Origin: Escherichia coli
GTDB lineage: Bacteria; Pseudomonadota; Gammaproteobacteria; Enterobacterales; Enterobacteriaceae
Assembly: GCF_003790525.1 (NCBI RefSeq)
Contig: NZ_CP033635.1
Strand: one strand, 5' to 3'
DNA length: 64,000 nt
The notes beneath the pieces were generated by a model that saw only the letters and a program-made list of their open reading frames with translations, searched no databases and was not told the origin of the DNA. Position 1 is the first letter of the stretch, and every line of letters starts with the position of its first letter. Of the stretch, positions 11,210 through 34,046 are shown in pieces. The position numbers were made by a program, and so were the translations under genes.

Positions 11210-12349
11210 TTAATCCTCCTCTTCCCCTGCATCCTTGTCTTCAGCCTGCGCTGACAGTGCTTTTATGCCCTCCCGGTACCAGTCCGGCGCGTCATGGTCA
11301 TATTCGGCAAAGCTGATATTCTCAATCAGTGCGCACTTACCATGGTCCTCAACCACATAGCAGTCGTTAACGGACTGATAGATGGCGATACGGTTGTATT
11401 CGGGCTCATCCTTCATGAGACGACGCATGGACCCCTTCTGCCAGTAAACCGACAGGTTGCTGAATGAGGTGATGAGCATTGACTGAGCCGGGAAAAATGG
11501 CGCAAGGTACACATCAAGGTCGCCAATGGTCCGCGTTGACACAATGAGCTGTCCGGCAAGCAGTTCGGCATTCGCATTCTGCATGCTGATACTGTTCAGG
11601 ACCGGCAGGCGCAGGGAGTTAAAGAGGTTTCGCCCCATGATGACAACGAGGTCGTCTGCGTCCTTGTGCCATTCGTCAAGCAGGGATGAGCGTGCATCCT
11701 GGACCAGTGCATCGGGATTGGCGTATCTGCCTGTGTATGCCACCGAATTGTCCATATTGCGCGCAGTCAGCATCACGTCTTTCATGACGCGTTGCGGGGC
11801 CTGGTCCCTGATATCCTGCAGCCACCCCTTATTGACGTCCTCAAGTCGCGGGTGTTTTTTTATATCCGAGACTTCCGCATGGTGCGTACCGTTAAAACCT
11901 GTCATGATGCGATCAAGTGCCACCTGTCTGGCAATCTGGCGACTCACACGCAGCTGGAAGTCAGGGTGTCCGGCCCACATGTCAAGCTGAGGGTAGGAGA
12001 TGAAGGTGTCGTAGTTCACCTGCTCGCACTCATAGCGTCGCGCTTTCATGTCCACCACATTCAGCGGGTTACGACGATTTGTACCGTCATAACTGCTGTT
12101 CGTGCGCGCAACCGGCCCGGTGGTGTCCAGGAGTACCTTTTCACCTTTCTGCTCTGTCACACCAATGCTGTTGGCTTTCTGAAGAAAATCATGGCTTTCC
12201 TTTGATGCGTTTTCAAATCTCTGCTGCACTGCCGGCTGTACCGAAAAGCGGGAGGAGAGCGCAGATATCGTGATGTTATTCATCTCCGCCTGTTGTGCCT
12301 GGTAAGCAAAAAGCTCGGCCCGCGCGGCATCGCTCATGATCAGATTCAT
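11210..12349 (-). CDS. phage major capsid protein (P2 gpN-like)
   Basis: 379-aa ORF between scaffold and terminase M. Confidence 0.8.
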   Translation of the reverse strand: MNLIMSDAARAELFAYQAQQAEMNNITISALSSRFSVQPAVQQRFENASKESHDFLQKANSIGVTEQKGEKVLLDTTGPVARTNSSYDGTNRRNPLNVVDMKARRYECEQVNYDTFISYPQLDMWAGHPDFQLRVSRQIARQVALDRIMTGFNGTHHAEVSDIKKHPRLEDVNKGWLQDIRDQAPQRVMKDVMLTARNMDNSVAYTGRYANPDALVQDARSSLLDEWHKDADDLVVIMGRNLFNSLRLPVLNSISMQNANAELLAGQLIVSTRTIGDLDVYLAPFFPAQSMLITSFSNLSVYWQKGSMRRLMKDEPEYNRIAIYQSVNDCYVVEDHGKCALIENISFAEYDHDAPDWYREGIKALSAQAEDKDAGEEED

Positions 12350-12377: not shown

Positions 12378-13214
12378 TCAGTAGTCAGCCAGTTGTCTGG
12401 ACTGCCCGCCGGTTGCCGTAAAACGACTTTCCTGATCAGCGTCCAGTCCGCGCAGTCTGTTTTTCAGCTCTGCCAGCTCAGTGGACAGGGTGGCGATTTT
12501 CTGTCTGTCTGCCTGATGGCGCGATTCCAGTGCACTGAAGCGGTCGAGAAGGTCGGCATGCGATGAGGCTATCCCCTCAACGGCGTCATGAATGCGGGAG
12601 AACCGGGTGTCGTCAGCCCTGCGTCCTCGCCCAATCATGTTCATCACGCGGTTAAGCCACTGCGCACCTTCCTCGCTGCGGCGCTCCGTCAGTTCGATCA
12701 CTTCAGCCTCAATGGCGTCAGAGAACATCGGTGCTTCCGTCTGCTGATTATTGAAGGTCATGACCGAACGGCGCTGCTGCAGGGCGAACTGAAGACGCTC
12801 CGTGCCGATGCTTGCCGGGGTGTCTGTCATGGCAAGGCCAATAAGATACGGGGTGCCCGTAGGGGTGAAATTTCGTGCCAGCTCAATACTGGAGTAAATT
12901 TTCTTACCCCGGGAGACCAGATTTTTCATGCGGTCGGTGGGTTCGATTTCCGCATACAGCGCAGTACGACCGACCAGCGGACCTTCGGTGATTTCTTCTG
13001 TGCTCAGTGCCGTCACATCACCCATGGCGGAAAATTCACTGGACGGAACCGGTGAAAGCCAGTGCTCCACGTTCACGCGTGCGCCGTAAATCTCAGGGTT
13101 GAAGTTACTGGCCGCCGCGCGCAAATCTGCGGCACTGATTTCGCGACCGTCTGCGGTGGGACCGGAAACGGCCACGCGGAATGTTTTACGGGATGTTTTT
13201 TTCTGTTCAGGCAT
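12378..13214 (-). CDS. phage capsid scaffolding protein (P2 gpO-like)
   Basis: ORF 12378-13355; start at internal Met (MPEQKKTSRK...) gives ~279 aa; divergent from terminase gene as in P2. Confidence 0.8.
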   Translation of the reverse strand: MPEQKKTSRKTFRVAVSGPTADGREISAADLRAAASNFNPEIYGARVNVEHWLSPVPSSEFSAMGDVTALSTEEITEGPLVGRTALYAEIEPTDRMKNLVSRGKKIYSSIELARNFTPTGTPYLIGLAMTDTPASIGTERLQFALQQRRSVMTFNNQQTEAPMFSDAIEAEVIELTERRSEEGAQWLNRVMNMIGRGRRADDTRFSRIHDAVEGIASSHADLLDRFSALESRHQADRQKIATLSTELAELKNRLRGLDADQESRFTATGGQSRQLADY

Positions 13215-13285
13215 TGTCGGGCCCTCGTGATGATCGTTTGTCTCATGATGGCAAAACGGGGCAGGGACAGACAAAGTGCGTTTGT

Positions 13286-13303
13286 TGTAAGCGAATGCCG
13301 ACA
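13286..13303. promoter_or_regulatory. TGT-N12-ACA dyad in the O/P divergent late promoter region (possible Ogr-type activator site)
   Basis: TGTAAGCGAATGCCGACA read directly, ~66 bp upstream of the P start; P2 late promoters are known to carry this dyad. Confidence 0.3.
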
Positions 13304-13368
13304 ACACCGGGCATGGCAGGAGGCCTGTAAGGGGTGAGTAAACTGCCTGAATCACATGAGGGGGAGAA

Positions 13369-15120
13369 ATGATTCAGGATACATTTGTTCGCCAGCGGGC
13401 ACGCCAGCTGTACTGGCAGGGTTACCCTGTTGCGGAAATTTCCCGCCTTATGGGTATCAACCAGAACACGATCCATTCGTGGAAAAAACGCGACCAGTGG
13501 GATGAGACGCCCCCGGTTCAGCGTGTCACGCAGTCCATGGATGCGCGACTCATTCAGCTCACGGAAAAACAGAATAAAACAGGCGGGGACTTTAAGGAAA
13601 TTGATTTGCTGACCCGTCAGCTTAAAAAGCTGCATGACGGTCTGCCGGATGAGACGGCAACAGGAAAGAAAGGCCGGGCGAAAAAACACAAAAATCATTT
13701 CACGCCGGAACAGATCGCGGCGCTGCGGGAAAAAATTACCGACAGGCTGGCCGGACACCAGCGCAAATGGCTTGATGCTATCGGTGCCTGTGAGCGTGCC
13801 GGAATTACTGACAGGATGATCCTGAAATCCCGCCAGATTGGGGCGACCTGGTATTTTGCGCAGGAAGCGCTGCTGATGGCGCTGCGTGACGATGTGGCAC
13901 AACCTTACCAGCGTAACCAGATTTTTTTGTCTGCGTCTCGTCGTCAGGCGCTCCAGTTTAAAAGCATTATTCAGAAGGCTGCATCTGAAGTTGATGTGGA
14001 ACTGAAAGGGGGCGATAAAGTCATCCTCTCCAACGGTGCAGAGCTGCATTTTCTCGGCACTTCTGCGGCCACCGCGCAAGCGTACACAGGGAATCTGTAT
14101 TTTGATGAGTTTTTCTGGACGGGGCGTTTCGCAGAGCTGCGCAAGGTGGCTGCTGCTATGGCAACGCTGGATGGTTTGCGGTGTACCTATTTTTCCACGC
14201 CATCAAGTGAAACACATGAGGCGTATGCATACTGGAACGGCGATCACTGGAATGAAGGGCTTCGTACTCATAAACGTCAGCATTTTGATGTGAGCTGGAA
14301 TGCGCTTCATAACGGCCTTATCTGTCCTGACTATATCTGGCGGCAAATTGTGACGCTGGAAGATGTGGTCAGTCAGGGATGGACGTTAACCAACATTGAC
14401 AAAATCCGGCGCAATAACACTGAAGACGAGTTCCGCAATCTCTACATGTGTGAATTTGCTCGCGAAGGGGAATCGGCATTTAACCTGAATATCCTGATTG
14501 GCTGCGGTGTTGACGGATACGACGAGTGGCCGGACTGGAAGCCGTTTGCACCGCGTCCGATGGGGAACCGCCCTGTGTGGATTGGGTACGACGCCAACGG
14601 CAGTAGCGGGAACGGTGACAGCGGGGCGGTTGTCGTGGTGGTGCCGCCAGCCGTACCGGGCGGGCGTTTTCGCACCGTGGAGACGCGGCGGGTGCAGGGG
14701 CTGGAGTTTGAGGCGCAGGCGAAGGTGATTGAAGAGTTCACCTTTCGCTATAACGTTGAGCATATCGGTATTGACGTAACCGGCGGTCACGGGGATGCGG
14801 TGTATCAGATTGTGAAGCGCTTTTTTCCGGCAGCCATTCCCTACACCTTCACCCTGTCATCAAAGCGCACGCTGGTTCTGAAGATGCTGCAGCTCATGCG
14901 CGCCGGGCGGTGGGAGTACGACCGCAGCGAGCGCGAACTGGTGAGCGCCTTTAACGCGGTACGCAAAACAAAAACGCAGGCCGGATTTATCACCTACGAA
15001 ACAGATCGCGCAAGAGGCGTAAGCCATGGCGATCTTGCATGGGCCACCATGCTGGCCGTTATCAACGAACCTGTCGGCGGTGAACATGATGCCGCCCCCT
15101 TCAGTGTTACGGAGTTCTGA
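13369..15120 (+). CDS. phage terminase large (ATPase) subunit (P2 gpP-like)
   Basis: 583-aa ORF, divergent from O, followed by portal gene. Confidence 0.85.
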   Translation: MIQDTFVRQRARQLYWQGYPVAEISRLMGINQNTIHSWKKRDQWDETPPVQRVTQSMDARLIQLTEKQNKTGGDFKEIDLLTRQLKKLHDGLPDETATGKKGRAKKHKNHFTPEQIAALREKITDRLAGHQRKWLDAIGACERAGITDRMILKSRQIGATWYFAQEALLMALRDDVAQPYQRNQIFLSASRRQALQFKSIIQKAASEVDVELKGGDKVILSNGAELHFLGTSAATAQAYTGNLYFDEFFWTGRFAELRKVAAAMATLDGLRCTYFSTPSSETHEAYAYWNGDHWNEGLRTHKRQHFDVSWNALHNGLICPDYIWRQIVTLEDVVSQGWTLTNIDKIRRNNTEDEFRNLYMCEFAREGESAFNLNILIGCGVDGYDEWPDWKPFAPRPMGNRPVWIGYDANGSSGNGDSGAVVVVVPPAVPGGRFRTVETRRVQGLEFEAQAKVIEEFTFRYNVEHIGIDVTGGHGDAVYQIVKRFFPAAIPYTFTLSSKRTLVLKMLQLMRAGRWEYDRSERELVSAFNAVRKTKTQAGFITYETDRARGVSHGDLAWATMLAVINEPVGGEHDAAPFSVTEF

Positions 15121-16175
15121 TGAGCAGAAAAAATAAACAACGACGTACGAACGCCCGCGCAGCGCAGGGCAGCCTTGCGGATTCCCTGCGAAGCGACCCG
15201 ACACTGAGTGCCTTCACGTTTGAAGGACCTTACCGGCTGTCAGGGGCCGACCTGCTGGACAGCATGTACTGCGCCGACAACGGGCGGTGGTTTGAAACGC
15301 CCGTTGACTGGTACGGACTGGCACGGGCTGCCCGCCAGACGTCCTGGCACCAGTCGGCGCTCAGCTTCAAACGTAATGTGCTGCTGGGCTGCTATATTCC
15401 ACATCCTCTGCTGTCCCGCCAGGAGTTCGCCGGGGTGGCGATGGACTGGTTTGTGTTCGGTAATGCCTGTCTTGAGCTGCGGCGCAACATGCTTGGCGAA
15501 CCGCTGGCCCTGCGCCGGGCGCTGGCGAAATACATGCGACGTGGCAGCGATATGAAATCATGGTGGTATATACAGGAAGGACAGGAAGAGTACCGCTTTC
15601 GTGAGGGGACGATATGCCACCTGATGAATCCTGATATCAACCAGGAGATTTACGGGATGCCGGATTACCTGGGCGGCCTGCTGTCTGCCAGCCTGTCACA
15701 TTCCGCCGATATCTTCCGCAAGCTCTACTACGATAACGGCTCACACGCGGGCTGTATTGTCTACATCGGTGCGGCGCAGGTTGACCGTGAAAGCATGGAA
15801 AAACTGCGGGAAACACTGCAAAGCGCGCGTGGTGGCGGGGCGTTTAAAAATCTGCTCATCCACGCGGCGGGAGGTGGTAAGGATGGCGTACAGATTTTGC
15901 CGTTTCAGCAAATCACCGCAAAGGATGAGTTCATGAACGTCAAGGCTGCATCGCGTGATGATGTGCTGTCCGTGCACCGTGTACCGCCGCAGCTGATGGG
16001 GGCCATGCCGGGTGAGAAGGGGTCATTCGGGGATGTGGAGAAGGCAGCCCGTGTGTTTGCCATTAACGAACTGATGCCCGTCATGGAAGCAATGAAACAC
16101 GTCAACGACTGGCTGGGCGAAGAGGTGATCCGTTTTAACCCTTACGCACTGTTAGACACCCAGCCCATATCCTGA
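15120..16175 (+). CDS. phage portal protein (P2 gpQ-like)
   Basis: 351-aa ORF with start overlapping the P stop; P2 Q-P-O arrangement. Confidence 0.85.
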   Translation: MSRKNKQRRTNARAAQGSLADSLRSDPTLSAFTFEGPYRLSGADLLDSMYCADNGRWFETPVDWYGLARAARQTSWHQSALSFKRNVLLGCYIPHPLLSRQEFAGVAMDWFVFGNACLELRRNMLGEPLALRRALAKYMRRGSDMKSWWYIQEGQEEYRFREGTICHLMNPDINQEIYGMPDYLGGLLSASLSHSADIFRKLYYDNGSHAGCIVYIGAAQVDRESMEKLRETLQSARGGGAFKNLLIHAAGGGKDGVQILPFQQITAKDEFMNVKAASRDDVLSVHRVPPQLMGAMPGEKGSFGDVEKAARVFAINELMPVMEAMKHVNDWLGEEVIRFNPYALLDTQPIS

Positions 16176-16202
16176 CGCGCTTCGCTTGTCTGCTGCTTCG
16201 CC

Positions 16203-16225
16203 GGGGCATAAAAAATTTATGCCCC
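16203..16225. terminator. 10-bp stem hairpin between convergent portal gene and cargo gene
   Basis: GGGGCATAAA-AAA-TTTATGCCCC read directly; no flanking U-tract, so may instead be a packaging-site (cos) element. Confidence 0.4.
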
Positions 16226-16241
16226 GACTCTCCAGCTCTGC

Positions 16242-16955
16242 TTAACGAAGTGCTGATGGCGCTCGCTTTTTCAGGTGATTAGCGATGTGCTTTTTCATGT
16301 GCATAACAACATCGCCCCAGGCTTCTTCGCTGGGTTTATTGATAAATACGCGAACAGAAATATCGTCTTCCACCCGGACTCTCAGAGACACCCGTTCCGC
16401 ATCTACTGAATATAATTCAAGTGCAATAACCACGCTTACCGGGTAGCTGCTGTCAGATGACTTAACCCAGGTTCGCACGGCCATGCGGAAAATATTGTCT
16501 GGTGCAGATGCGATATTGTGGACTGAAAGAGGACTAAAATCCGCCGCTGTCTTACATGGCAAGCCTGTCTCCACGTAGCGGTGCAGGTCGCCATCATCGT
16601 CTTCCCAGTACATGGATGGAAGCCCCAGCCATTCTTCATAGAAATCAATCAGCCTTGCCGCTTCATCCCGCAAAATTTGAGCTGCCTCAGCGCGTTTTTC
16701 TTCAGCTTCACGATTGATCTGGCATAAATCATTAAAGTGGCTCATGACATTATCCTCTTTTGAGTTGATGCCTGCCGCTATTCTGACTTTGCCCGGGTTC
16801 TCCTGCAAGCTGGTTATTCCTTCAGATAATTTCACAACATCTCCAACCTTGTAGCCATCATCGCCGGGCGGATGCTTACGCAACCCCGCAACTCTGACGA
16901 CATATTCTCGCTGCCTCAGTGCGATTTTGACGGCCTTATCTTTCACCCCCATCAA
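16242..16955 (-). CDS. hypothetical protein, stand-alone cargo gene at the P2 tin/old-equivalent position; start ambiguous
   Basis: Open frame with normal codon usage; the listed first codon is TTG with ATG as codon 2 (16950-16952); an internal ATG at 16745 has a strong AAGAGGA Shine-Dalgarno; GC lower than the late genes; no family recognised. Confidence 0.55.
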   Translation of the reverse strand: MMGVKDKAVKIALRQREYVVRVAGLRKHPPGDDGYKVGDVVKLSEGITSLQENPGKVRIAAGINSKEDNVMSHFNDLCQINREAEEKRAEAAQILRDEAARLIDFYEEWLGLPSMYWEDDDGDLHRYVETGLPCKTAADFSPLSVHNIASAPDNIFRMAVRTWVKSSDSSYPVSVVIALELYSVDAERVSLRVRVEDDISVRVFINKPSEEAWGDVVMHMKKHIANHLKKRAPSALR

Positions 16956-17171
16956 ATCAAGCTTTTACGTCTTTTTTACGCTCAGCGTGAGAAATACAGC
17001 CATTCTGTTGTGTCGCTGCAACATCGTTCAGGGAATGCTATTTACCCCCTGAAACGCGGGCTGTTCCCCCGTCACCTGCGCGCAGAAAAAGGCCTTTTTT
17101 CGTGCACGCACGGATCCCCGACGGATCCAGACGCCACACGGGCCGGAAGGGCAAAAAGTCGTTCAAAAAAA

Positions 17172-17198
17172 TTGTGCAAATTTGTGCACTATTGTGCA
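17172..17198. repeat. three direct TTGTGCA repeats at exact 10-bp spacing
   Basis: attgtgcaaa / tttgtgcact / attgtgcatt read directly; immediately beside the terminator of the upstream operon. Confidence 0.6.
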
Positions 17199-17205
17199 TT
17201 GAAAT

Positions 17206-17228
17206 AAACGCCCTGGAGGAGGGCGTTT
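17206..17228 (-). terminator. rho-independent terminator after the five-gene small-protein operon
   Basis: AAACGCCCT-GGAGG-AGGGCGTTT 9-bp stem, followed on the minus strand by a U-rich run. Confidence 0.6.
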
Positions 17229-17235
17229 TGCTCAT

Positions 17236-17637
17236 CTATTTATAGCCTTGCCCCTTACTGGCCAGCGCCCTGATGGCAGGGCGTGCCAACACCATATTTT
17301 GGCAATGATGAATTGCCCGGCAAAATTCATCTCTACCCATTGGATGCTCAACTGGCAATGTAAAATACAGGTTCCATGCATCGCCTAAAAGTTGGGCTAT
17401 CTTTTGTTCTTCAGATGTCAGCAAGCGGTACTCCCCATCCTTGATGTAGTCACTTGTGCCATCGACCTGCTGTTCTGCAATGTGGAAAGCACCTATTGGT
17501 TTTGCTTCCAGCGATGCCAAAGCAATCCGTGCCAGTTTTTCCGCTTCTTCGGCTGGCAGTACAACGTTGCTACCAGGTCCGTATGTTTCGCGCCACTGCC
17601 TGATTGTCAGTAGTCGCTCTTTGGTTATAGTGGTCAT
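17236..17637 (-). CDS. hypothetical protein (133 aa)
   Basis: ORF with start overlapping the upstream stop; last gene of the operon following gene A; no family recognised. Confidence 0.5.
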   Translation of the reverse strand: MTTITKERLLTIRQWRETYGPGSNVVLPAEEAEKLARIALASLEAKPIGAFHIAEQQVDGTSDYIKDGEYRLLTSEEQKIAQLLGDAWNLYFTLPVEHPMGRDEFCRAIHHCQNMVLARPAIRALASKGQGYK

Positions 17638-17843
17638 TTGTTAATCCTCAAAACTTTATGCCCGGGCGCAAAAGCACGAGTTTTGTCTTTGCTTATTCGC
17701 CAGCCATCCTTACGCGCCTCTTTTGCACAGCCAGTCCATGACGTACCGATATATTCACCGAAGTCTGGCGTTTGATATTTACCATTTGTACACTGGCGAC
17801 AATCACAATAGAGATGCATGGTGTAACTTGCGGCAATAGCCAT
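17634..17843 (-). CDS. hypothetical small Cys-rich protein (69 aa), possible zinc ribbon
   Basis: Cys residues in a C-x-C-x2-C pattern plus a further Cys; translationally coupled to neighbours. Confidence 0.45.
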   Translation of the reverse strand: MAIAASYTMHLYCDCRQCTNGKYQTPDFGEYIGTSWTGCAKEARKDGWRISKDKTRAFAPGHKVLRINK

Positions 17844-17844
17844 A

Positions 17845-18174
17845 TCAGTCTCCTTTGATGCCAGTGTTTACAACCTGACAAGCCTCTTTGAGCACCCAGT
17901 CAACAGCGTCTTGCCATGCTCCGGTTTCGACTGGCGGATTCTCACGCTTTACCAGTTCATAGAAACGTACTGCTCTAACCAGTCCATCTGACGGTTTTGC
18001 CTGTAGTGCAGCCTGAGCTATGCGGTATACCTGGAGCATACAGGCGTCGTTGATATCCATTCCGAATGGAATATCTGATGACTGAGATTCCACATCTTCC
18101 AGCCTGGCAATTTCTTTACGTAAGAAGCCTTTCAGTTCCTGCTTCTGTTTCCTGTTCATATATTTTTCCTTCAA
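17845..18174 (-). CDS. hypothetical protein (109 aa)
   Basis: ORF in operon; start overlaps the upstream stop. Confidence 0.45.
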   Translation of the reverse strand: MKEKYMNRKQKQELKGFLRKEIARLEDVESQSSDIPFGMDINDACMLQVYRIAQAALQAKPSDGLVRAVRFYELVKRENPPVETGAWQDAVDWVLKEACQVVNTGIKGD

Positions 18175-18365
18175 AGTTCGGTTCGCTGACAGGGTTTCTC
18201 TTTACGGCAGACAATGACGCTTCCTTTGCTCGAGTCGGTGATTGTTACCGTGCCGTCATCACACTGGACAATGACAACGGTGTTGCTCTTTTTCGCTACG
18301 CAGTTCGGCGTGGCTGATTGTGCGAATGGCGCGAAAAACAGCAGAAAAAGTAATATTCTGCTCAC
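18171..18365 (-). CDS. small secreted Cys-containing protein (~64 aa), predicted GTG start
   Basis: GTG at 18363-18365 preceded by GGAGGA Shine-Dalgarno; N-terminal signal-peptide-like SRILLFLLFFAPFAQSA followed by a 4-Cys mature region; the longer ATG-initiated ORF lacks a ribosome-binding site. Confidence 0.45.
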   Translation of the reverse strand: MSRILLFLLFFAPFAQSATPNCVAKKSNTVVIVQCDDGTVTITDSSKGSVIVCRKEKPCQRTEL

Positions 18366-18793
18366 TGTTGTTTCCTCCCGTTCTGTGCTGGTCTGGCGAA
18401 TGAATTGCGTTGTGGTGAAAAGACCATTCGCGCCAGCGCGGCCTTGTGATTGACTGTGTTCAGTGTTCTGGCCAGTCCGCCGTTGTGCCTGCGTGTCCGC
18501 TCTTCGTGATATCTCTGCATGATTTTCCCGGCAGGCGTGCACGGCTCCGGTTCCTCCGGCGAACGGCGCGGACGAATGACGACAGTCCAGCTATGGCTCT
18601 CGCTGCCCGGCCGCCTGTTGAGTATGTCGGCGATGGTGGTCTCCGTGGTGCGATCGGGGCTGACTATCGTGATTTCCAGCTCGTCGCCCGGTTGTGGCCT
18701 TGTGGCAGGCCTGAACAGTGTCAGCACCGGCATACGCTGGCGCATGATGGCCTCAAACTGTGGGCGCTGCATGGTGCAGCAAAATCGCGTCAT
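18362..18793 (-). CDS. hypothetical protein (143 aa), Arg/Pro-rich
   Basis: ORF with start immediately after the gene A stop; GC-rich with alternative frames also open, so coding status is uncertain. Confidence 0.4.
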   Translation of the reverse strand: MTRFCCTMQRPQFEAIMRQRMPVLTLFRPATRPQPGDELEITIVSPDRTTETTIADILNRRPGSESHSWTVVIRPRRSPEEPEPCTPAGKIMQRYHEERTRRHNGGLARTLNTVNHKAALARMVFSPQRNSFARPAQNGRKQQ

Positions 18794-21300
18794 GCTCCCG
18801 CCTCCACTGGCTGCTCTGTGATGATGTGACGGGCTGACTCATCCCAGTACGCTGTTCCCCCGTTATCCAGACGCACACGGGCACCGTTACGCACGGAGAT
18901 GATGGCCGCGTCAGGCAACTGCACACCCAGCGCATCAAGTTCGCGGGCGATTTGCGTGTCCGTCGCGGTATCCGCAGGCACGACAATCCCCACCCTTACA
19001 GGGGTGTCAGATGCCGGTGTGGTGTCGTTTTGTCCGGTTTTTGCGCCCGACGGCTGATTTTTAATCTGATTACGCAGTTTTCTCCGATCGCCCCTGCTTA
19101 ACGTATTCAGCCAGCTTTCCAGGTTCTCTTCGGGAAGCGTCAGTCGTCCGGGGTCCTGCCTGTTTTCTGGTCCGTGATTGTCTGTTTTTTCATCCCGGGG
19201 ACAGTTATTGCCACGAGTCCAAGGGGCGACGGGGTCGCCCTGAAGGTCAAAACCCTCGCCCGTGCGGTTGTCTGGTATTGTTTCTTTTTTAACCAGTTTC
19301 CACTCGTCCGGATGGGTGCATATGGTGTACCGCTCTCCGAGCGACGGGGCGCAGATTCCGTAGATACGTTGAGGGAATTCACCGTAGTCGTTGGCTTCGT
19401 CTGCGGTTTCGTATGCGGTGCGGACCAGATACTGGTTGCGCGGAATGAGCACACCACCCTGTTTCATGATGTAGGTGGCAAAACATCCCACATCTGCGGC
19501 AGCCATAATGGCGTCAATATCGTCATGATCGAGGTGCTTCGGTGATGCCGGGTTGCGCTCCATCTGGCTTGCAAGGCGGCGGAGTTCACGCCATACCTGG
19601 CGGGGCGGAATGCCGAAAAACTGGAACTGACGGATGCGGTGAAGGCTTGCCCAGGCAATGGCGTTCTCCACGGTTTCCGCCATGGTTTTCCCGGATTCCT
19701 CATCAACGTAAGGTTTTCCGGTTTTCGGATCATTGTTGTGGAAAGCGCTGGCGTCCAGGTTCTTACCGATATAGGTTGCGATATAGCTTGCCGGTGTGCC
19801 TTTTTCCGGGTCTATCTTCTCGCATTTAAAGCGCGGTGAAATATCGTCCCCCAGTTCGTGGCGATCTGATTTAATTGCTGCTTCGCGCATAATTTCGATG
19901 ATGCGCTCTGCGTTCTCCGGGGAAGTGAATACCAGCATATGCCAGTGTGGCGTGCCGTCATGGTGTGGCTCAGCGGTTCGCACGCCGTACCAGCCCAGCC
20001 CCTCTTTTTTTATTTTTTTTCTTACGGCTGCGAAGAAGTCGTAAACCAGATAATCACTGGCATCTCGTACTGTGGCACCGTTGTATTTCGGGTTCAGGCT
20101 GCCGTTCTCGTTCACGCTGTGAAAGCGGGAAGGGGTGGTTACTGTGATGAAGAATGCGACGTCAGCCCGTAATTCGGCCACCATCTCCATCCCTCTGACG
20201 CAGACCATCATTTCATTGCGGCGGTTGCGTGGATTACCCAGGCCAGCCCAGTACACGTCCTCCAGACTCAGGCGCTCGCCGTCTTCGTTTTCAATATCCC
20301 AGCTTTTGAGAAAGTCACAGGTGCGCTGGCGCTTCTCGCGGAACTCCAGTAGTGACTCATGGCTGATATAGGGGGATTGTTTACGTGACACTCTGCCGGC
20401 GGCGCGCAGTAACTCCTCCCGCCAGAGATCGGCGACGTGGCGTAACTGGTTGTTCCACCAGGTCGCGCAGGTGATGCGCAGTACCGCACCCGGAACCCGT
20501 TCAGGGTCCGGCGGTGTGCGTCGGTTGTGCCTGATTTCGAGTTCCGGCCAGTATGGCGGGACCATGCCCAGAATTAAGGCTGTGCGTGCCACCTTCTGGT
20601 AGGCCAGCAGCCAGATAACCGGGCTGTCATTATCCTTGCCTGTCCGTTCAAGAACTTCATCACATATGCGTTCAAATTCTGCGGCGAATGCCTGGGCTGT
20701 CAGTGTGGCGATGCGCTGGATTTCGTCACGGGTGAGTTGCGGCAGTGTGAGCAGTTCTTCAAGGCGATGGCGCACGACGGTGGTTTTGAATGCCGGCGTT
20801 GCAAAGCGGTCGTTAACCCTTTCAATACGTTTCAGGCGCGCACGCAGTCCACGGCGAACGAAATTATCGGCCACGTATGCGCTGTTGTTTTTTACACCTT
20901 CACTGCGGGCACTTTGCTGTTTCCGGTTCAGTCGTGCCAGATCACGGATCAACACACTGGCAAGAAACGAGGGCAGGGTGCGAAGTTCGGCTATCGCCTC
21001 CGATACCGCCGTTGGCGGATTTTCGCGTCTGTGTCGTGCCAGCTTATCCAGCCTTATCTGCCGCTCTTCGTCCCGGTGAAGGTGTGAATTAATTTGCTTA
21101 CCTTTGTCCGTGGTTGTCAGGAAGGCCACGGTTTCTTCATCCAGCCGGGCCTCAGTGCGAATGTCTTCGGTGAGGTAGTCACGGATTGCCCGTTGTAATG
21201 CGGTTGGCTTCTGCGGTAATGCTCTGCCGAATGTCTCAGGATCAATAACCGGCAGCGGGGCGTTCCACGGGTACGCCAGGTGCGTGTGGTGATGGCTCAT
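18790..21300 (-). CDS. phage replication initiation endonuclease (P2 gpA-like, rolling-circle)
   Basis: 836-aa ORF; contains a GTPHWHMLVF HUH-type motif; position in the early operon as for P2 A. Confidence 0.8.
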   Translation of the reverse strand: MSHHHTHLAYPWNAPLPVIDPETFGRALPQKPTALQRAIRDYLTEDIRTEARLDEETVAFLTTTDKGKQINSHLHRDEERQIRLDKLARHRRENPPTAVSEAIAELRTLPSFLASVLIRDLARLNRKQQSARSEGVKNNSAYVADNFVRRGLRARLKRIERVNDRFATPAFKTTVVRHRLEELLTLPQLTRDEIQRIATLTAQAFAAEFERICDEVLERTGKDNDSPVIWLLAYQKVARTALILGMVPPYWPELEIRHNRRTPPDPERVPGAVLRITCATWWNNQLRHVADLWREELLRAAGRVSRKQSPYISHESLLEFREKRQRTCDFLKSWDIENEDGERLSLEDVYWAGLGNPRNRRNEMMVCVRGMEMVAELRADVAFFITVTTPSRFHSVNENGSLNPKYNGATVRDASDYLVYDFFAAVRKKIKKEGLGWYGVRTAEPHHDGTPHWHMLVFTSPENAERIIEIMREAAIKSDRHELGDDISPRFKCEKIDPEKGTPASYIATYIGKNLDASAFHNNDPKTGKPYVDEESGKTMAETVENAIAWASLHRIRQFQFFGIPPRQVWRELRRLASQMERNPASPKHLDHDDIDAIMAAADVGCFATYIMKQGGVLIPRNQYLVRTAYETADEANDYGEFPQRIYGICAPSLGERYTICTHPDEWKLVKKETIPDNRTGEGFDLQGDPVAPWTRGNNCPRDEKTDNHGPENRQDPGRLTLPEENLESWLNTLSRGDRRKLRNQIKNQPSGAKTGQNDTTPASDTPVRVGIVVPADTATDTQIARELDALGVQLPDAAIISVRNGARVRLDNGGTAYWDESARHIITEQPVEAGA

Positions 21301-30438: not shown

Positions 30439-31056
30439 ATGACAACCCAGTATGGATTTTTTATTGATTCCAGCCGTTGCACCGGTTGCAAAACCTGCGA
30501 GCTGGCCTGTAAAGACTACAAAGATTTGACGCCAGAAGTCAGTTTCCGCCGCATTTATGAATATGCTGGCGGCGACTGGCAGGAAGATAACGGTGTCTGG
30601 CACCAGAACGTGTTTGCCTACTATCTGTCGATTTCATGTAACCACTGCGAAGATCCGGCTTGTACTAAAGTCTGCCCGAGCGGTGCGATGCATAAACGTG
30701 AAGATGGTTTTGTTGTGGTCGATGAAGATGTGTGCATTGGCTGCCGCTACTGCCATATGGCTTGCCCGTATGGCGCACCGCAATATAACGAAACGAAAGG
30801 CCGTATGACCAAATGCGATGGTTGTTATGACCGTGTTGCGGAGGGGAAAAAGCCGATCTGTGTTGAATCTTGCCCGCTGCGGGCGCTGGATTTCGGCCCT
30901 ATCGACGAGCTGCGTAAAAAACATGGCGATCTGGCGGCCGTTGCGCCGTTGCCGCGAGCTCACTTTACCAAACCGAATATTGTGATCAAACCCAATGCCA
31001 ACAGCCGCCCGACCGGGGATACCACTGGCTATCTGGCAAACCCGAAGGAGGTGTGA
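30439..31056 (+). CDS. dmsB: DMSO reductase iron-sulfur subunit B
   Basis: 205 aa with four Cys-x2-Cys-x2-Cys-x3-Cys-Pro ferredoxin motifs. Confidence 0.95.
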   Translation: MTTQYGFFIDSSRCTGCKTCELACKDYKDLTPEVSFRRIYEYAGGDWQEDNGVWHQNVFAYYLSISCNHCEDPACTKVCPSGAMHKREDGFVVVDEDVCIGCRYCHMACPYGAPQYNETKGRMTKCDGCYDRVAEGKKPICVESCPLRALDFGPIDELRKKHGDLAAVAPLPRAHFTKPNIVIKPNANSRPTGDTTGYLANPKEV

Positions 31057-31057
31057 G

Positions 31058-31921
31058 ATGGGAAGTGGATGGCATGAATGGCCGCTGATGATCTTCACGG
31101 TCTTCGGGCAATGTGTAGCGGGTGGTTTTATCGTTCTGGCTTTGGCGCTGCTCAAAGGCGACCTGCGAGCAGAAGCCCAGCAGCGTGTTATTGCCTGCAT
31201 GTTTGGTTTATGGGTGCTGATGGGCATTGGCTTTATCGCCTCTATGCTTCATCTTGGTTCACCGATGCGCGCCTTTAACTCGCTCAACCGGGTAGGGGCT
31301 TCAGCACTCAGTAACGAAATCGCCAGCGGTTCGATCTTTTTTGCTGTTGGTGGCATCGGCTGGTTACTGGCAATGCTGAAAAAGCTGTCACCGGCATTGC
31401 GTACGCTGTGGCTGGTGGTGACGATGGTTCTTGGCGTCATCTTTGTCTGGATGATGGTGCGTGTCTATAACAGCATCGATACCGTACCTACCTGGTACAG
31501 CATCTGGACGCCGATGGGCTTCTTCCTGACGATGTTTATGGGCGGCCCGTTACTGGGTTACCTGTTGTTGAGTCTGGCTGGCGTCGATGGCTGGGCGATG
31601 CGTCTGCTGCCAGCAATTTCTGTACTGGCACTGGTAGTGAGTGGCGTGATGTCAGTGATGCAGGGCGCAGAGCTGGCGACTATTCATAGTTCTGTGCAGC
31701 AGGCCGCAGCGCTGGTGCCGGACTATGGTGCGCTGATGTCCTGGCGGATCGTGCTTTTGGCCGTTGCCCTGTGCTTGTGGATTGCACCACAGCTAAAAGG
31801 TTATCAGCCTGCGGTTCCGCTACTTTCTGTATCATTCATTCTGCTTCTGGCAGGGGAATTAATCGGTCGCGGCGTATTCTATGGTTTGCATATGACCGTG
31901 GGGATGACCGTCGCAAGCTAA
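31058..31921 (+). CDS. dmsC: DMSO reductase membrane anchor subunit C
   Basis: ORF 30995-31921; start placed at MGSGWHEWPLMIF (287 aa); polytopic membrane protein. Confidence 0.9.
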   Translation: MGSGWHEWPLMIFTVFGQCVAGGFIVLALALLKGDLRAEAQQRVIACMFGLWVLMGIGFIASMLHLGSPMRAFNSLNRVGASALSNEIASGSIFFAVGGIGWLLAMLKKLSPALRTLWLVVTMVLGVIFVWMMVRVYNSIDTVPTWYSIWTPMGFFLTMFMGGPLLGYLLLSLAGVDGWAMRLLPAISVLALVVSGVMSVMQGAELATIHSSVQQAAALVPDYGALMSWRIVLLAVALCLWIAPQLKGYQPAVPLLSVSFILLLAGELIGRGVFYGLHMTVGMTVAS

Positions 31922-31956
31922 TCAGTAACAACCGGGGTTTCGGCCCCGGTTCTCTT

Positions 31957-32583
31957 TTATTTCTGCTTCGTTAACGTGTCATAACTGGTCATCAAATTAC
32001 GATAATCAGGAATGTGGTTAGAGAACAACGTCGCCAGTCCTTCAATATCATTACGCCAGTCACGGTGCAGCTCGCAAGCCACGCCGAACCATGTCATCAA
32101 TTGCGCACCTGCTTGCGACATGCGATCCCATGCCGAATGCCGGGTAATTTCATTAAAGGTCCCTGAGGCGTCAGTCACGACAAAGACGTCAAACCCTTCT
32201 TCAATGGCTGAAAGCGCCGGGAATGCCACGCAAACTTCAGTTACCACACCGGCAATAATTAACTGTTTTTTACCTGTCGCTTTGACTGCTTTTACAAAAT
32301 CTTCGTTATCCCAGGCGTTAATATTTCCCGGGCGAGCAATGTAAGGTGCATCGGGGAATTGTGCTTTCAGTTCTGGAACTAATGGACCGTTAGGACCGGT
32401 TTCAAAACTGGTGGTAAGAATAGTTGGTAAGTTAAAATACTTAGCCAGGTCACCCAGCGCCAGCACGTTATTTTTAAACTTATCGGGTTCGATATCCCGT
32501 ACAAGGGAAAGTAAACCAGCCTGGTGATCAACAAGCAAAACGGCAGCATCATTTTTATCAAGACGAACATACGGTTTGGTCAT
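31957..32583 (-). CDS. ycaC: isochorismatase-family hydrolase YcaC
   Basis: 208-aa ORF recognised as YcaC; conserved position. Confidence 0.9.
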   Translation of the reverse strand: MTKPYVRLDKNDAAVLLVDHQAGLLSLVRDIEPDKFKNNVLALGDLAKYFNLPTILTTSFETGPNGPLVPELKAQFPDAPYIARPGNINAWDNEDFVKAVKATGKKQLIIAGVVTEVCVAFPALSAIEEGFDVFVVTDASGTFNEITRHSAWDRMSQAGAQLMTWFGVACELHRDWRNDIEGLATLFSNHIPDYRNLMTSYDTLTKQK

Positions 32584-32897
32584 CCTCTTCTCCTTTCGAG
32601 AGTCAGTGGTACGTCTGAAATCGGTCAGACGCGATGCATTGCTCTGAAAGCATAGACGGGAAATATGAGTTTGCTGTGACCATGAAATTTTTCGACTGAA
32701 CGAAGCGTATGAAATTTGTGTTAGATCAATAAAAACAATCAGATGAGATTAATCGTCTCTCCAGCATTAGCGTTATGAATGAGTAATATAAATCGATAAT
32801 ACCTCAGCTGCGATATGCGCGTATTTTCACCCATTGACAATGTTTTTGGCGGTGGCATGATGCGCATGAAATTTGAACTTCCTCACGGTTTTAATTC

Positions 32898-34046
32898 ATG
32901 TCCACGTATACCCGGCCTGTCATGCTTTTGCTGTCTGGCCTGCTTTTGTTGACTCTGGCGATTGCGGTGTTAAATACACTCGTGCCGCTTTGGCTCGCCC
33001 AGGAACACATGTCCACATGGCAGGTAGGCGTTGTCAGCTCATCCTATTTTACCGGCAACCTGGTCGGTACATTGCTGACAGGGTATGTCATTAAGCGCAT
33101 TGGCTTTAACCGCAGCTATTATCTGGCCTCCTTCATTTTTGCCGCTGGCTGTGCCGGCCTTGGCCTGATGATTGGATTCTGGAGCTGGTTGGCTTGGCGT
33201 TTTGTCGCCGGCGTCGGCTGTGCCATGATTTGGGTGGTTGTTGAGAGCGCGCTGATGTGCAGTGGGACGTCACGTAACCGTGGGCGTTTGCTTGCTGCGT
33301 ATATGATGGTTTATTACGTGGGAACGTTTTTAGGCCAGTTACTGGTCAGCAAAGTTTCAACCGAGCTGATGTCCGTATTGCCGTGGGTTACAGGTTTGAC
33401 GTTGGCAGGGATCTTACCGCTGTTGTTTACGCGTGTGCTGAATCAGCAGGCTGAAAACCATGATTCGACGTCAATTACGTCAATGCTAAAACTCCGTCAG
33501 GCGCGGCTTGGCGTGAATGGCTGCATTATCTCAGGAATCGTTCTGGGATCTCTATATGGCCTGATGCCGCTGTACCTCAATCACAAAGGGGTGAGCAATG
33601 CCAGCATTGGTTTCTGGATGGCGGTACTGGTCAGTGCGGGTATCCTTGGACAATGGCCGATTGGACGTCTGGCGGATAAGTTTGGTCGACTGCTGGTGTT
33701 GCGTGTTCAGGTCTTTGTCGTCATTCTCGGCAGTATCGCGATGCTTAGCCAGGCGGCGATGGCCCCAGCGTTATTCATCCTCGGTGCCGCTGGCTTTACG
33801 CTATATCCGGTGGCGATGGCATGGGCTTGCGAGAAAGTTGAACATCATCAACTGGTGGCGATGAACCAGGCCTTACTGTTGAGCTATACCGTGGGAAGTC
33901 TGCTTGGCCCGTCATTTACTGCCATGCTAATGCAGAATTTCTCCGATAATTTATTGTTTATCATGATCGCCAGCGTATCGTTTATCTATTTGCTGATGCT
34001 GCTTCGCAACGCCGGTCATACGCCGAAACCCGTTGCTCACGTGTAA
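32898..34046 (+). CDS. ycaD: MFS transporter YcaD
   Basis: 382-aa polytopic membrane protein; conserved position. Confidence 0.9.

What the first reader, a model, noticed from the sequence alone, without database searches (positions are those of the whole stretch)
16176..17235. Stand-alone gene of unknown function at the tin/old-equivalent cargo position of a P2-like prophage
In P2 the stretch between replication gene A and the portal/cos end carries the exclusion genes tin and old, and this position is reported to be a hotspot for diverse anti-phage systems in P2-like prophages. Here it holds a single minus-strand gene (16242-16955, 167-237 aa depending on start). It is separated from the upstream operon by a terminator and a 280-bp non-coding region, has lower GC than the structural genes, and matches no family I can recognise. 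Start is ambiguous: TTG/ATG at the ORF head versus an internal ATG with a strong AAGAGGA ribosome-binding site, so a shorter isoform is possible. This is my best candidate for an undescribed defence or exclusion gene; function is unassigned.
Basis: partly seen in the sequence, partly recalled or inferred. Interest (0 to 1): 0.7.

Follow-up and report, generated by a model that had tools for sequence, protein, structure and literature searches.

The report
Uncharacterised accessory gene beside P2-like portal
A real, self-contained 167-residue accessory gene of unknown function sits between the packaging (cos) site and the portal gene of a P2-like E. coli prophage; it belongs to a small, fast-diverging family found only at that spot, so it is a reasonable but untested candidate for a phage-conflict gene.

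Summary
The ORF is real, but the protein is the 167-aa form (16242-16745, minus strand). The 237-aa head is a chance open frame over non-coding DNA.

The gene is a self-contained cassette: a conserved sigma-70-like promoter (TTGCAG-N17-CAGAAT, 16808-16780), a strong ribosome-binding site, and a hairpin shared tail-to-tail with portal gene Q. It is under purifying selection (dN/dS 0.1-0.3).

It matches no Pfam, NCBIfam or PADLOC model. It does belong to PHROG 5091, function unknown. A 54%-identical relative is listed, unannotated, as "system 54" in Rousset et al. 2022, and no family member appears among their cloned systems.

Every family member whose context I could read lies in a P2-like prophage next to the portal gene. 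Where I mapped the probable cos core, the gene lies on the portal side of it. P2's tin and old lie on the other side. About 8% of complete E. coli genomes carry a member; this allele is in 31 of 5,426.

The AlphaFold model (pLDDT 87) is a non-enzymatic alpha/beta sandwich, possibly dimeric, with only weak structural analogues.

Function remains unassigned. I favour a prophage-expressed binding protein acting in conflict with phages or satellites (about 0.4). Counter-defence and other roles remain open.

The parts
16242..16745 (-). Coding sequence of the 167-aa protein (ATG 16745-16743, TAA 16244-16242), a PHROG 5091 family member
   Evidence: The PHROG match covers only residues 70-236 of the long ORF. 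Nearly all homologues are 164-169 aa and start at MSHF. dN/dS is 0.11-0.33. AF2 pLDDT 87, pTM 0.83.
16753..16759 (-). Ribosome-binding site AAGAGGA, 7 nt before the ATG
   Evidence: Read directly from the sequence. GAGGA/AAGGA/GGAGG is conserved at the same place in homologous loci.
16780..16808 (-). Conserved sigma-70-like promoter: -35 TTGCAG (16808-16803), 17-nt spacer, -10 CAGAAT (16785-16780)
   Evidence: TTGCnn-N17-CAnAAT is found 30-39 nt before the ATG in 11 of 13 diverse family loci. The spacers are unrelated, and the set includes the 25%-identical type B. The background rate is 0.6% of 100-nt windows. Function is inferred, not shown.
16200..16228 (.). Strong hairpin shared by the convergent portal gene Q and this gene (bidirectional terminator candidate)
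   Evidence: Fold dG is -23.2 kcal/mol on the minus strand (z -4.8) and -24 on the plus strand (z -3.4). It is homologous to the hairpin after Q in P88. P2 annotates a terminator tQ at the equivalent place.
16239..16822 (-). The cassette (promoter, RBS and gene) that is absent from phage P88 and relatives; approximate insertion boundaries
   Evidence: Alignment with P88 and P88_4B11. Both flanks are conserved at about 88-90% and the cassette is missing.
16746..16955 (-). Spurious N-terminal extension of the annotated 236/237-aa ORF (non-coding; contains the promoter and 5' UTR)
   Evidence: 16823-16955 is homologous to DNA that carries frame-shifts and stops in this frame in P88-like phages. 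Substitutions by codon position are 6/10/8, with no third-position bias. No homologue conserves it.
17063..17083 (.). Probable cos core (plus strand GTTCCCCCGTCACCTGCGCGC), the most conserved block of the intergenic region
   Evidence: The block is conserved across Edwardsiella, Salmonella and E. coli loci. It aligns, weakly, with the P2 19-nt cohesive end. It lies 182-351 bp from the portal stop in 50 loci without the gene and 887-938 bp away in the 7 loci with a family gene. Its identity as cos is inferred.
17172..17198 (-). Three direct TGCACAA repeats at exact 10-bp phasing (17198, 17188, 17178); possible terminase-binding (cosB-like) sites
   Evidence: Read from the sequence. The repeats are conserved in P88, Salmonella and other loci. 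Function is inferred.
17206..17228 (-). Intrinsic terminator ending the early (A) operon
   Evidence: Hairpin of -15.2 kcal/mol, z -3.5, followed by UUUAUUU, immediately after the stop of ORF 17236-17637.
15120..16175 (+). Portal gene Q, the invariant convergent neighbour of the family
   Evidence: PGAP annotates it as 'phage portal protein'. A portal homologue lies immediately downstream of every family member with readable context.

Best explanation
The feature is a self-contained accessory cassette ('moron') of a P2-like prophage: a weak constitutive-type sigma-70 promoter, a strong ribosome-binding site, a 167-aa ORF, and a hairpin shared with the convergent portal gene.

The product is a soluble, mildly acidic, non-enzymatic alpha/beta-sandwich protein and is probably a homodimer. 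It belongs to a family (PHROG 5091) found only in P2-like phages and only in the interval between the cos site and portal gene Q. That family has diversified into alleles as little as 25% identical.

I infer that the protein is made from the resident prophage independently of the phage's early and late operons. I infer that it works stoichiometrically, by binding a protein (or nucleoprotein) of a competing mobile element, either a superinfecting phage or a P4-type satellite that uses the same cos and packaging machinery.

Shown here: gene structure, true start, family membership, fixed position, patchy distribution, purifying selection, fold.

Inferred: promoter activity, expression in lysogens, dimerisation, binding mode, and the conflict role.
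For: - True start and family.
- Cassette absent from P88 with conserved flanks.
- Promoter motif conserved in 11 of 13 loci against a 0.6% background.
- Hairpins.
- dN/dS 0.11-0.33.
- Dispensability: absent from P2, from P88 and from most of the 1,150 E. coli genomes that share the flanks, and interrupted by ISEc12 in two genomes.
- Fixed position next to the portal in every locus with readable context.
- Allelic replacement: a 98.8%-identical gene sits beside an 82%-identical portal (L019), and a 75%-identical gene beside a 30%-identical portal (L020). The 25%-identical type B occupies the same slot.
- Tandem-fusion model pTM 0.73.
- Arrangement mirrors P2 old/tin, which start near cos and run convergent to a phage operon.
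- The A-to-Q interval is a documented reservoir of anti-phage genes (PMC9122126, PMC9519451).
Against: - No phenotype exists. No family member appears among the systems cloned by Rousset et al. (peptide search of their tables).
- It matches none of the PADLOC models. These include the systems recovered by the functional selection of Vassallo et al. against T4, lambda-vir and T7 (my knowledge, not checked here).
- The family is confined to P2-like phages and one slot. It is absent from 72,556 plasmids apart from two large records, absent from non-P2 phages, and gave no hit in one pattern-limited scan of 100,044 species-representative genomes. Characterised defence systems are usually found in many kinds of element.
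- The promoter hexamers are weak (3/6 and 4/6) and were not picked up by the generic scan.
Confidence: 0.4

Rival explanations
1. Counter-defence (anti-defence) protein. A small binding protein is made as soon as the phage DNA enters a new host, from a host-polymerase promoter at the extreme left end of the virion chromosome. It inhibits a host immune system. Allelic diversification would reflect different targets.
For: - The protein is small, mildly acidic (pI 5.4, net -6.7), non-enzymatic and fast-diverging.
- It is found only in phages.
- It lies about 250 bp from the probable cos end with a sigma-70-type promoter reading inward.
- Its restriction to one phage lineage fits an anti-defence gene better than a defence gene.
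Against: - It is not acidic enough to be a DNA mimic of the Ocr or ArdA kind.
- It is not placed in the early operon, where an entry-phase function would be expected.
- I could not establish which P2 DNA end enters first.
- There is no match to any characterised inhibitor.
- Known anti-defence genes are reported to be rare in P2-like phages (28 of 1,511; bioRxiv 10.64898/2026.02.27.708500).
Confidence: 0.2
2. P2-specific life-cycle or competition accessory tied to packaging. The protein interacts with cos DNA, terminase or portal. It might modulate packaging, block packaging by rival P2-like phages, or counter piracy by P4-type satellites that share cos.
For: - The family is exclusive to P2-like phages.
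- It is invariably placed between the cos core and portal/terminase genes Q and P.
- There is a precedent for small prophage proteins that block a rival's terminase: TerI in Listeria (bioRxiv 10.1101/2025.02.27.640495).
Against: - The gene is absent from P2, P88 and most relatives, so it is not needed for packaging.
- The same portal type occurs with type A, with type B or with no gene, so it has not co-evolved with the portal.
- The promoter looks constitutive, not late. I saw no TGT-N12-ACA late-promoter element when I read the sequence upstream of the -35.
- The basic C-terminal helix is not conserved in type B.
Confidence: 0.15
3. Lysogenic-conversion gene that benefits the host in some way unrelated to phages (stress, colonisation or virulence modulation).
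For: - It has moron architecture.
- The same interval carries non-defence cargo, such as partition systems and cytolethal distending toxin, in other P2-like phages (PMC9122126).
- Carriers of this allele are often poultry and human isolates.
Against: - I saw no hydrophobic signal-peptide or membrane stretch in the 167-aa sequence, and Rousset's Phobius columns are empty for the 54%-identical homologue.
- There is no similarity to any effector.
- Extreme allelic divergence under purifying selection is more typical of conflict genes.
Confidence: 0.1
4. The annotated 236/237-aa protein is the true product.
For: The frame is open from 16955 and PGAP chose the long form.
Against: - There is no ribosome-binding site at the head.
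- The extension overlaps the conserved promoter.
- Homologous DNA in relatives has stops and frame-shifts, and substitutions show no codon-position bias.
- Nearly all homologues and the PHROG profile begin at M70.
- The exact 167-aa product is called on 829 contigs.
Confidence: 0.03

Closest known systems
PHROG family phrog_5091 (unknown function), including the 174-aa 'type B' allele of phages PhiR44_2, vB_EcoM-705R2 and vB_EcoM-569R5
   Same: Full-length HMM match (E 3.5e-52 for this gene and 1.4e-67 for type B). Same slot tail-to-tail with the portal gene, same promoter motif, same length class.
   Different: This allele is only about 25% identical to type B (hhalign probability 97%). Its cassette sits on the cos side of the Q hairpin, whereas type B sits between the Q stop and the hairpin. 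It is rarer: 31 versus 397 of 5,426 E. coli genomes.
'System 54' of Table S5B in Rousset et al. 2022 (PMC9122126)
   Same: It is a homologue (the P0010 type, 54% identical) recorded as a single-protein, Pfam-less system, with 77 occurrences among 18,150 E. coli P2 loci.
   Different: It is a different allele. It is listed without annotation, and no family peptide appears in their tables of cloned systems. They treated the whole A-to-Q interval as one hotspot and did not separate the two sides of cos.
P2 tin and old (lysogenic-conversion exclusion genes)
   Same: They are accessory genes beside cos in the A-to-Q interval of the prophage map. They are transcribed from their own promoter near cos, convergent to a phage operon, and are dispensable.
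   Different: They lie on the opposite side of cos, between A and the right cohesive end. There is no sequence relationship (hhalign with Tin gives probability 0.2%). Old is an ATPase-nuclease, whereas this protein has no enzymatic signature.
FP domain (PI31/Fbxo7), type III secretion chaperones and frataxin-type alpha/beta sandwiches
   Same: The overall architecture is shared: a long N-terminal helix and a C-terminal helix packed on an antiparallel sheet. These are modules that dimerise or bind partner proteins.

Membership tests
PHROG phrog_5091 | Significant full-length match to the family HMM | tested here: met
   E 3.5e-52, protein residues 70-236 against profile positions 1-163 of 164.
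PHROG phrog_5091 (as characterised here) | Located in a P2-like phage, convergent with and adjacent to portal gene Q, on the portal side of the cos core | tested here: met
   Window: Q stop at 16175, gene stop at 16242, cos core at 17063-17083. Portal adjacency holds in every locus with readable context. The cos side was mapped in the window and in 7 family loci.
Moron (autonomous accessory cassette in a prophage) | Own promoter and terminator, absent from close relatives, base composition unlike its neighbours | tested here: inconclusive
   The promoter motif is conserved, there is a hairpin, the cassette is absent from P88, and GC is 0.48 against 0.54-0.58. Promoter activity and expression in lysogens were not measured.
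Known anti-phage defence systems (PADLOC-DB v2.0.0) | Match to any defence-protein HMM | tested here: not met
   No families at E up to 1 for this protein or for type B.
Anti-phage defence system (functional definition) | Confers resistance to phage infection when expressed | not testable with these tools
No family member appears among the cloned systems in Rousset et al..
P2 Tin | Sequence or profile homology to Tin | tested here: not met
   hhalign probability 0.2%.
tin/old cargo slot of P2 | Position between the end of the A operon and the right cohesive end | tested here: not met
   In P2, tin and old are at 30684-33380 with cosR at 33575-33593, and Q is 186 bp from cosL. Here the gene lies between the cos core and Q. 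The cos assignment is inferred.
DNA-mimic anti-restriction proteins (Ocr/ArdA type) | Very high negative charge density | tested here: not met
   Net charge -6.7, pI 5.4. Homologues have pI 5.1-7.1.

The most novel reading that the evidence does not exclude
PHROG 5091 is a dedicated, slot-locked conflict module of P2-like phages. It would be a non-enzymatic dimeric binder, expressed from the prophage, whose hyper-diverged alleles each neutralise a specific rival that depends on the same cos and packaging apparatus. The rival could be a P4-type satellite or a competing P2-like phage. That would make it the first helper-phage-encoded anti-satellite or packaging-interference factor described for the P2/P4 system. 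It would also explain why the gene is never found away from cos and the portal gene.
Probability: 0.12. Interest if true: 0.8.

Novelty: new member of a known kind. Interest (0 to 1): 0.5.

Why it matters
P2-like prophages are among the commonest prophages of E. coli, and their cos-proximal region is a proven source of new immune systems.

This family is present in roughly one in twelve complete E. coli genomes (397 + 31 + 11 of 5,426). It has no annotation in Pfam, NCBIfam or PADLOC, and I found no experimental characterisation of it.

The analysis turns a vague 'hypothetical protein' into a defined experimental object:
- a correct 167-aa start;
- a 600-bp cassette with its own promoter;
- natural allelic series (types A and B and the P0010 type), natural empty sites, and IS-disrupted copies;
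- at least one propagatable phage (PhiR44_2 on E. coli C) that carries a family member.

It also shows that the A-to-Q 'hotspot' has two sides separated by cos. In the loci I examined, the only ORFs of 150 aa or more on the portal side belong to this one family.

The RefSeq start (236 aa) is probably over-extended by 69 codons.

Tried and rejected
- **Family libraries.** Pfam, NCBIfam and PADLOC gave nothing.
- **Rfam** on 15500-18500 at E up to 1 gave nothing.
- **PDB sequence profile search** gave only chance-level hits.
- **BFVD viral structures** gave nothing at E below 0.1.
- **tblastn of this allele** against 50,697 phage records and 72,556 plasmids found no match.
- **Scan of 100,044 species-representative genomes** with the family pattern found no relative. 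The scan is limited by the pattern used.
- **Two further profile searches** of the 5.8-billion-protein set added only close family members. They did not reach the 15-25%-identical structural relatives seen in AFDB50, so I could not read the genomic context of those relatives.
- **A weak phmmer hit** to a 1,449-aa repeat protein (P0014) was dismissed as summed repeat noise.
- **Exact P2 cohesive-end sequence** is not present within 3 mismatches. The cos assignment rests on a conserved block and a weak local alignment.
- **The start of the linear P88_4B11 record** (window 17153) was considered as a cos end. It was not relied on, because it may be arbitrary.
- **Which P2 DNA end is injected first** could not be settled by literature search.
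- **The generic promoter scan** missed the conserved promoter because its -35 matches only 3 of 6 positions.
- **The 'terminator-like' hit at 17189-17174** is part of the TGCACAA repeats and is not a terminator.

Full report
**Setting**

The window is E. coli chromosome carrying a P2-like prophage related to phage P88 (Xuanwuvirus, Peduoviridae). An identical 1.2-kb stretch occurs in 17 complete E. coli genomes. PGAP annotates the neighbourhood as follows:

| Gene | Coordinates | Strand |
|---|---|---|
| capsid N | 11210-12349 | - |
| scaffold O | 12378-13355 | - |
| terminase P | 13369-15120 | + |
| portal Q | 15120-16175 | + |
| hypothetical protein (this finding) | 16242-16952 | - |
| short early-operon genes | to about 18793 | - |
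| replication endonuclease A | 18790-21300 | - |

**Checking the observation**

- The ORF 16242-16955 exists.
- A hairpin with a U-tract terminates the A operon at 17206-17228.
- The stretch 16956-17235 has no credible gene.
- The gene's GC is 0.48, against 0.54-0.58 for N, P, Q and A. The adjacent early-operon tail genes are equally AT-rich.
- Pfam, NCBIfam and PADLOC give nothing.

So the description is accurate.

**True gene**

Five lines of evidence show the protein is the 167-aa form starting at ATG 16745.

1. The only family match, PHROG 5091, covers residues 70-236 of the long ORF and the whole 164-position profile.
2. Nearly all homologues are 164-169 aa and begin MSHF/MSNF. The exact 167-aa product has been called on 829 contigs.
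3. AAGAGGA lies 7 nt upstream of the internal ATG. The ORF head has no such site.
4. The DNA under the extension (16823-16955) is homologous to DNA of P88-like phages that has stops and a frame-shift in this frame. Substitutions fall 6/10/8 on codon positions 1/2/3, which is not a coding pattern.
5. The extension overlaps the conserved promoter described below.

RefSeq's 236-aa model is therefore probably over-extended. Within the 167 codons, dN/dS between alleles is 0.11-0.33, so the gene is under purifying selection.

**Cassette anatomy**

Phage P88 and P88_4B11 align on both sides of the gene but lack about 16239-16822. That segment carries the ORF, the ribosome-binding site and a promoter-like element: TTGCAG (16808-16803), a 17-nt spacer, then CAGAAT (16785-16780).

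The pattern TTGCnn-N17-CAnAAT recurs 30-39 nt before the start codon in 11 of 13 diverse family loci. Their spacers are unrelated. The pattern occurs in 0.6% of background 100-nt windows.

Downstream, a very stable hairpin (16200-16228, -23 kcal/mol) is shared tail-to-tail with Q. P2 annotates a terminator at the equivalent place.

This is the architecture of an autonomous accessory cassette. Promoter activity is inferred and was not measured.

**Position relative to cos**

In P2 the left cohesive end is 186 bp from the Q stop with no annotated gene between them. tin and old lie at the other chromosome end, between A and the right cohesive end, and are transcribed from near cos toward A.

In the window, the most conserved block of the intergenic region is at 17063-17083. 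It is conserved in Edwardsiella, Salmonella and E. coli loci and aligns, weakly, with the P2 cohesive end.

I examined 80 portal-anchored viral contigs (portal identity 66-100%).

- In 50 loci without a family gene, this block lies 182-351 bp beyond the portal stop.
- In the 7 loci with a family gene, it lies 887-938 bp beyond the portal stop.

So the gene sits between cos and Q, not in the tin/old slot proper. In this prophage the true tin/old slot (terminator 17206-17228 to the cos core) holds no ORF above the noise. The identity of the block as cos is an inference.

**The family**

Sequence searches of 1.84 and 5.8 billion proteins find only about two dozen clusters. They come from E. coli, E. 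marmotae, E. albertii, Salmonella, Edwardsiella, Serratia, Erwinia and Klebsiella.

Every member whose context I could read is in a P2-like prophage, convergent with the portal gene. The stop-to-stop gap is usually 20-90 bp, and the gene is preceded by the 400-650-bp cos region.

In the 80 portal-anchored loci, the only ORFs of at least 150 aa ending next to the portal are family members.

- This allele ('type A'): 2 loci.
- The P0010 type: 1 locus.
- A 174-aa 'type B': 4 loci.

Type B matches the family profile at E 1e-13 locally, hhalign probability 97% at 25% identity, and phrog_5091 at E 1.4e-67. Type B has the same promoter motif. Its cassette junction differs: it sits between the Q stop and the hairpin. 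It is carried by the deposited phage genomes PhiR44_2 (host E. coli C), vB_EcoM-705R2 and vB_EcoM-569R5.

Frequencies in 5,426 complete E. coli genomes are type B 397, type A 31 and the P0010 type 11. The flanks of the slot occur in 1,150 genomes.

The alleles move independently of their neighbours. A 98.8%-identical type A gene lies beside an 82%-identical portal, and a 75%-identical one beside a 30%-identical portal.

The gene is dispensable. It is missing from P2 and P88, and it is split by ISEc12 in two genomes.

The family is essentially absent elsewhere. There are two hits in very large plasmid records and none in non-P2 phages. One pattern-limited scan of species-representative genomes found no relative.

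**Prior knowledge**

Rousset et al. 2022 list a 54%-identical homologue as 'system 54' (77 occurrences, no Pfam, no signal peptide or membrane helix, no note) among 169 systems of the P2 hotspot. No family peptide occurs in their tables of cloned systems.

My searches found no paper that mentions phrog_5091 or this sequence. The later P2 hotspot surveys I read describe the A-to-portal hotspot as a whole.

**Structure**

AlphaFold2 with a 13-sequence alignment gives pLDDT 87 and pTM 0.83. The model has a 38-residue N-terminal helix, a mainly antiparallel sheet (strands between residues 46 and 134) and a C-terminal helix (139-161).

- All of these are binding or dimerisation modules, and none is a convincing relative.
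- BFVD gives nothing.
- AFDB50 returns about 30 uncharacterised proteins of 155-175 aa at TM 0.7-0.9 and 15-30% identity. They come from Enterobacterales, Pseudomonas, Halomonas and Aquitalea. I could not retrieve their contexts.

No polar constellation is conserved between types A and B. The shared signature is YE-x-(W/S)-L-x-LPS-xx-W-x-D-xx-G-xx-H-YV-x-x-G, spanning the end of helix 1 and the following hairpin.

The protein is mildly acidic (pI 5.4, net -6.7). A tandem fusion of two copies models with pTM 0.73 despite a disordered 30-residue linker. This hints at a homodimer but is weak evidence.

**Interpretation**

What is established:
- a real, selected, dispensable cassette with its own expression signals;
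- a non-enzymatic fold;
- a strikingly fixed location;
- deep allelic diversification;
- a patchy distribution.

These features fit a conflict gene. The arrangement mirrors old and tin on the other side of cos. The surrounding interval is a proven source of anti-phage genes (PMC9122126, PMC9519451).

I therefore favour a prophage-expressed binding protein that interferes with a competing phage or satellite (confidence about 0.4).

Against a generic defence system, the family never leaves P2-like phages or this slot, and no family member matches a known defence model or appears among Rousset's cloned systems. That pattern suits a counter-defence protein (about 0.2) or a P2-specific packaging or anti-satellite role (about 0.15) about as well. 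A host-directed conversion function (about 0.1) cannot be excluded.

**Verdict**

It needs correction on the start codon, on the slot (portal side of cos) and on novelty (a catalogued but uncharacterised family). It is a good, well-defined experimental target but not yet a discovery.

Noticed in passing
window 17172-17198 (minus strand): Three direct TGCACAA repeats at exact 10-bp spacing, about 100 bp from the probable cos core on the A side. They are conserved in P88, Salmonella and other loci. They may be binding sites for the small terminase subunit. The generic scan mis-scored part of them as a terminator.
   Followed up: partly
window 17236-17637 (minus strand): This 133-aa ORF looks chimeric. 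Residues 1-76 match phrog_60/3323/660 and residues 72-133 match phrog_13916 (labelled 'DNA ligase', 67 aa). PGAP annotates only 17503-17637 as a partial pseudogene.
   Followed up: no
L003 (NZ_CP158426.1) and NZ_LT599825.1; equivalent to window about 16643-16649: In two complete genomes the gene is interrupted by an IS21-family element, ISEc12 (istA/istB). The two flanking matches overlap by about 7 bp, consistent with a target-site duplication.
   Followed up: partly
NZ_CP135671.1 (strain TUM9803), NZ_CP172185.1 (strain GF60): Up to four separate matching places for the cassette in one chromosome, which implies several P2-like prophages carrying the same allele in one strain.
   Followed up: no
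L111-L145 (type B loci), 150 nt upstream of the gene: In type B loci the cassette lies between the portal stop and the Q hairpin. A remnant of the original Q 3' end and stop region (GCGAAGCGCGTCAG) sits upstream of the cassette. So the two allele types entered the slot at different junctions.
   Followed up: partly
window 16242-16952; RefSeq WP_223942718.1: Public annotations of the same gene disagree on length: 167, 197, 234 and 236 aa. The long forms are probably start-codon over-extensions.
   Followed up: yes
window 18171-18542 and 18362-18793 (minus strand): Two long ORFs overlap here. PGAP calls a 64-aa gene (18171-18365) and the 143-aa gene (18362-18793, phrog_14984). The 123-aa reading is probably an over-extension.
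   Followed up: no
window 17845-18174 (minus strand): This 109-aa early-operon ORF gives a marginal PADLOC hit to candidate PDC-M28C (E 0.01, 12.7 bits). It covers a small part of a 480-position profile and is most likely noise.
   Followed up: no
window 17100-17130 (minus strand): An inverted GGATCC...GGATCC element (CTGGATCCGTCGGGGATCCGTGCGTGCAC) lies between the TGCACAA repeats and the cos core. It is conserved in P88.
   Followed up: no
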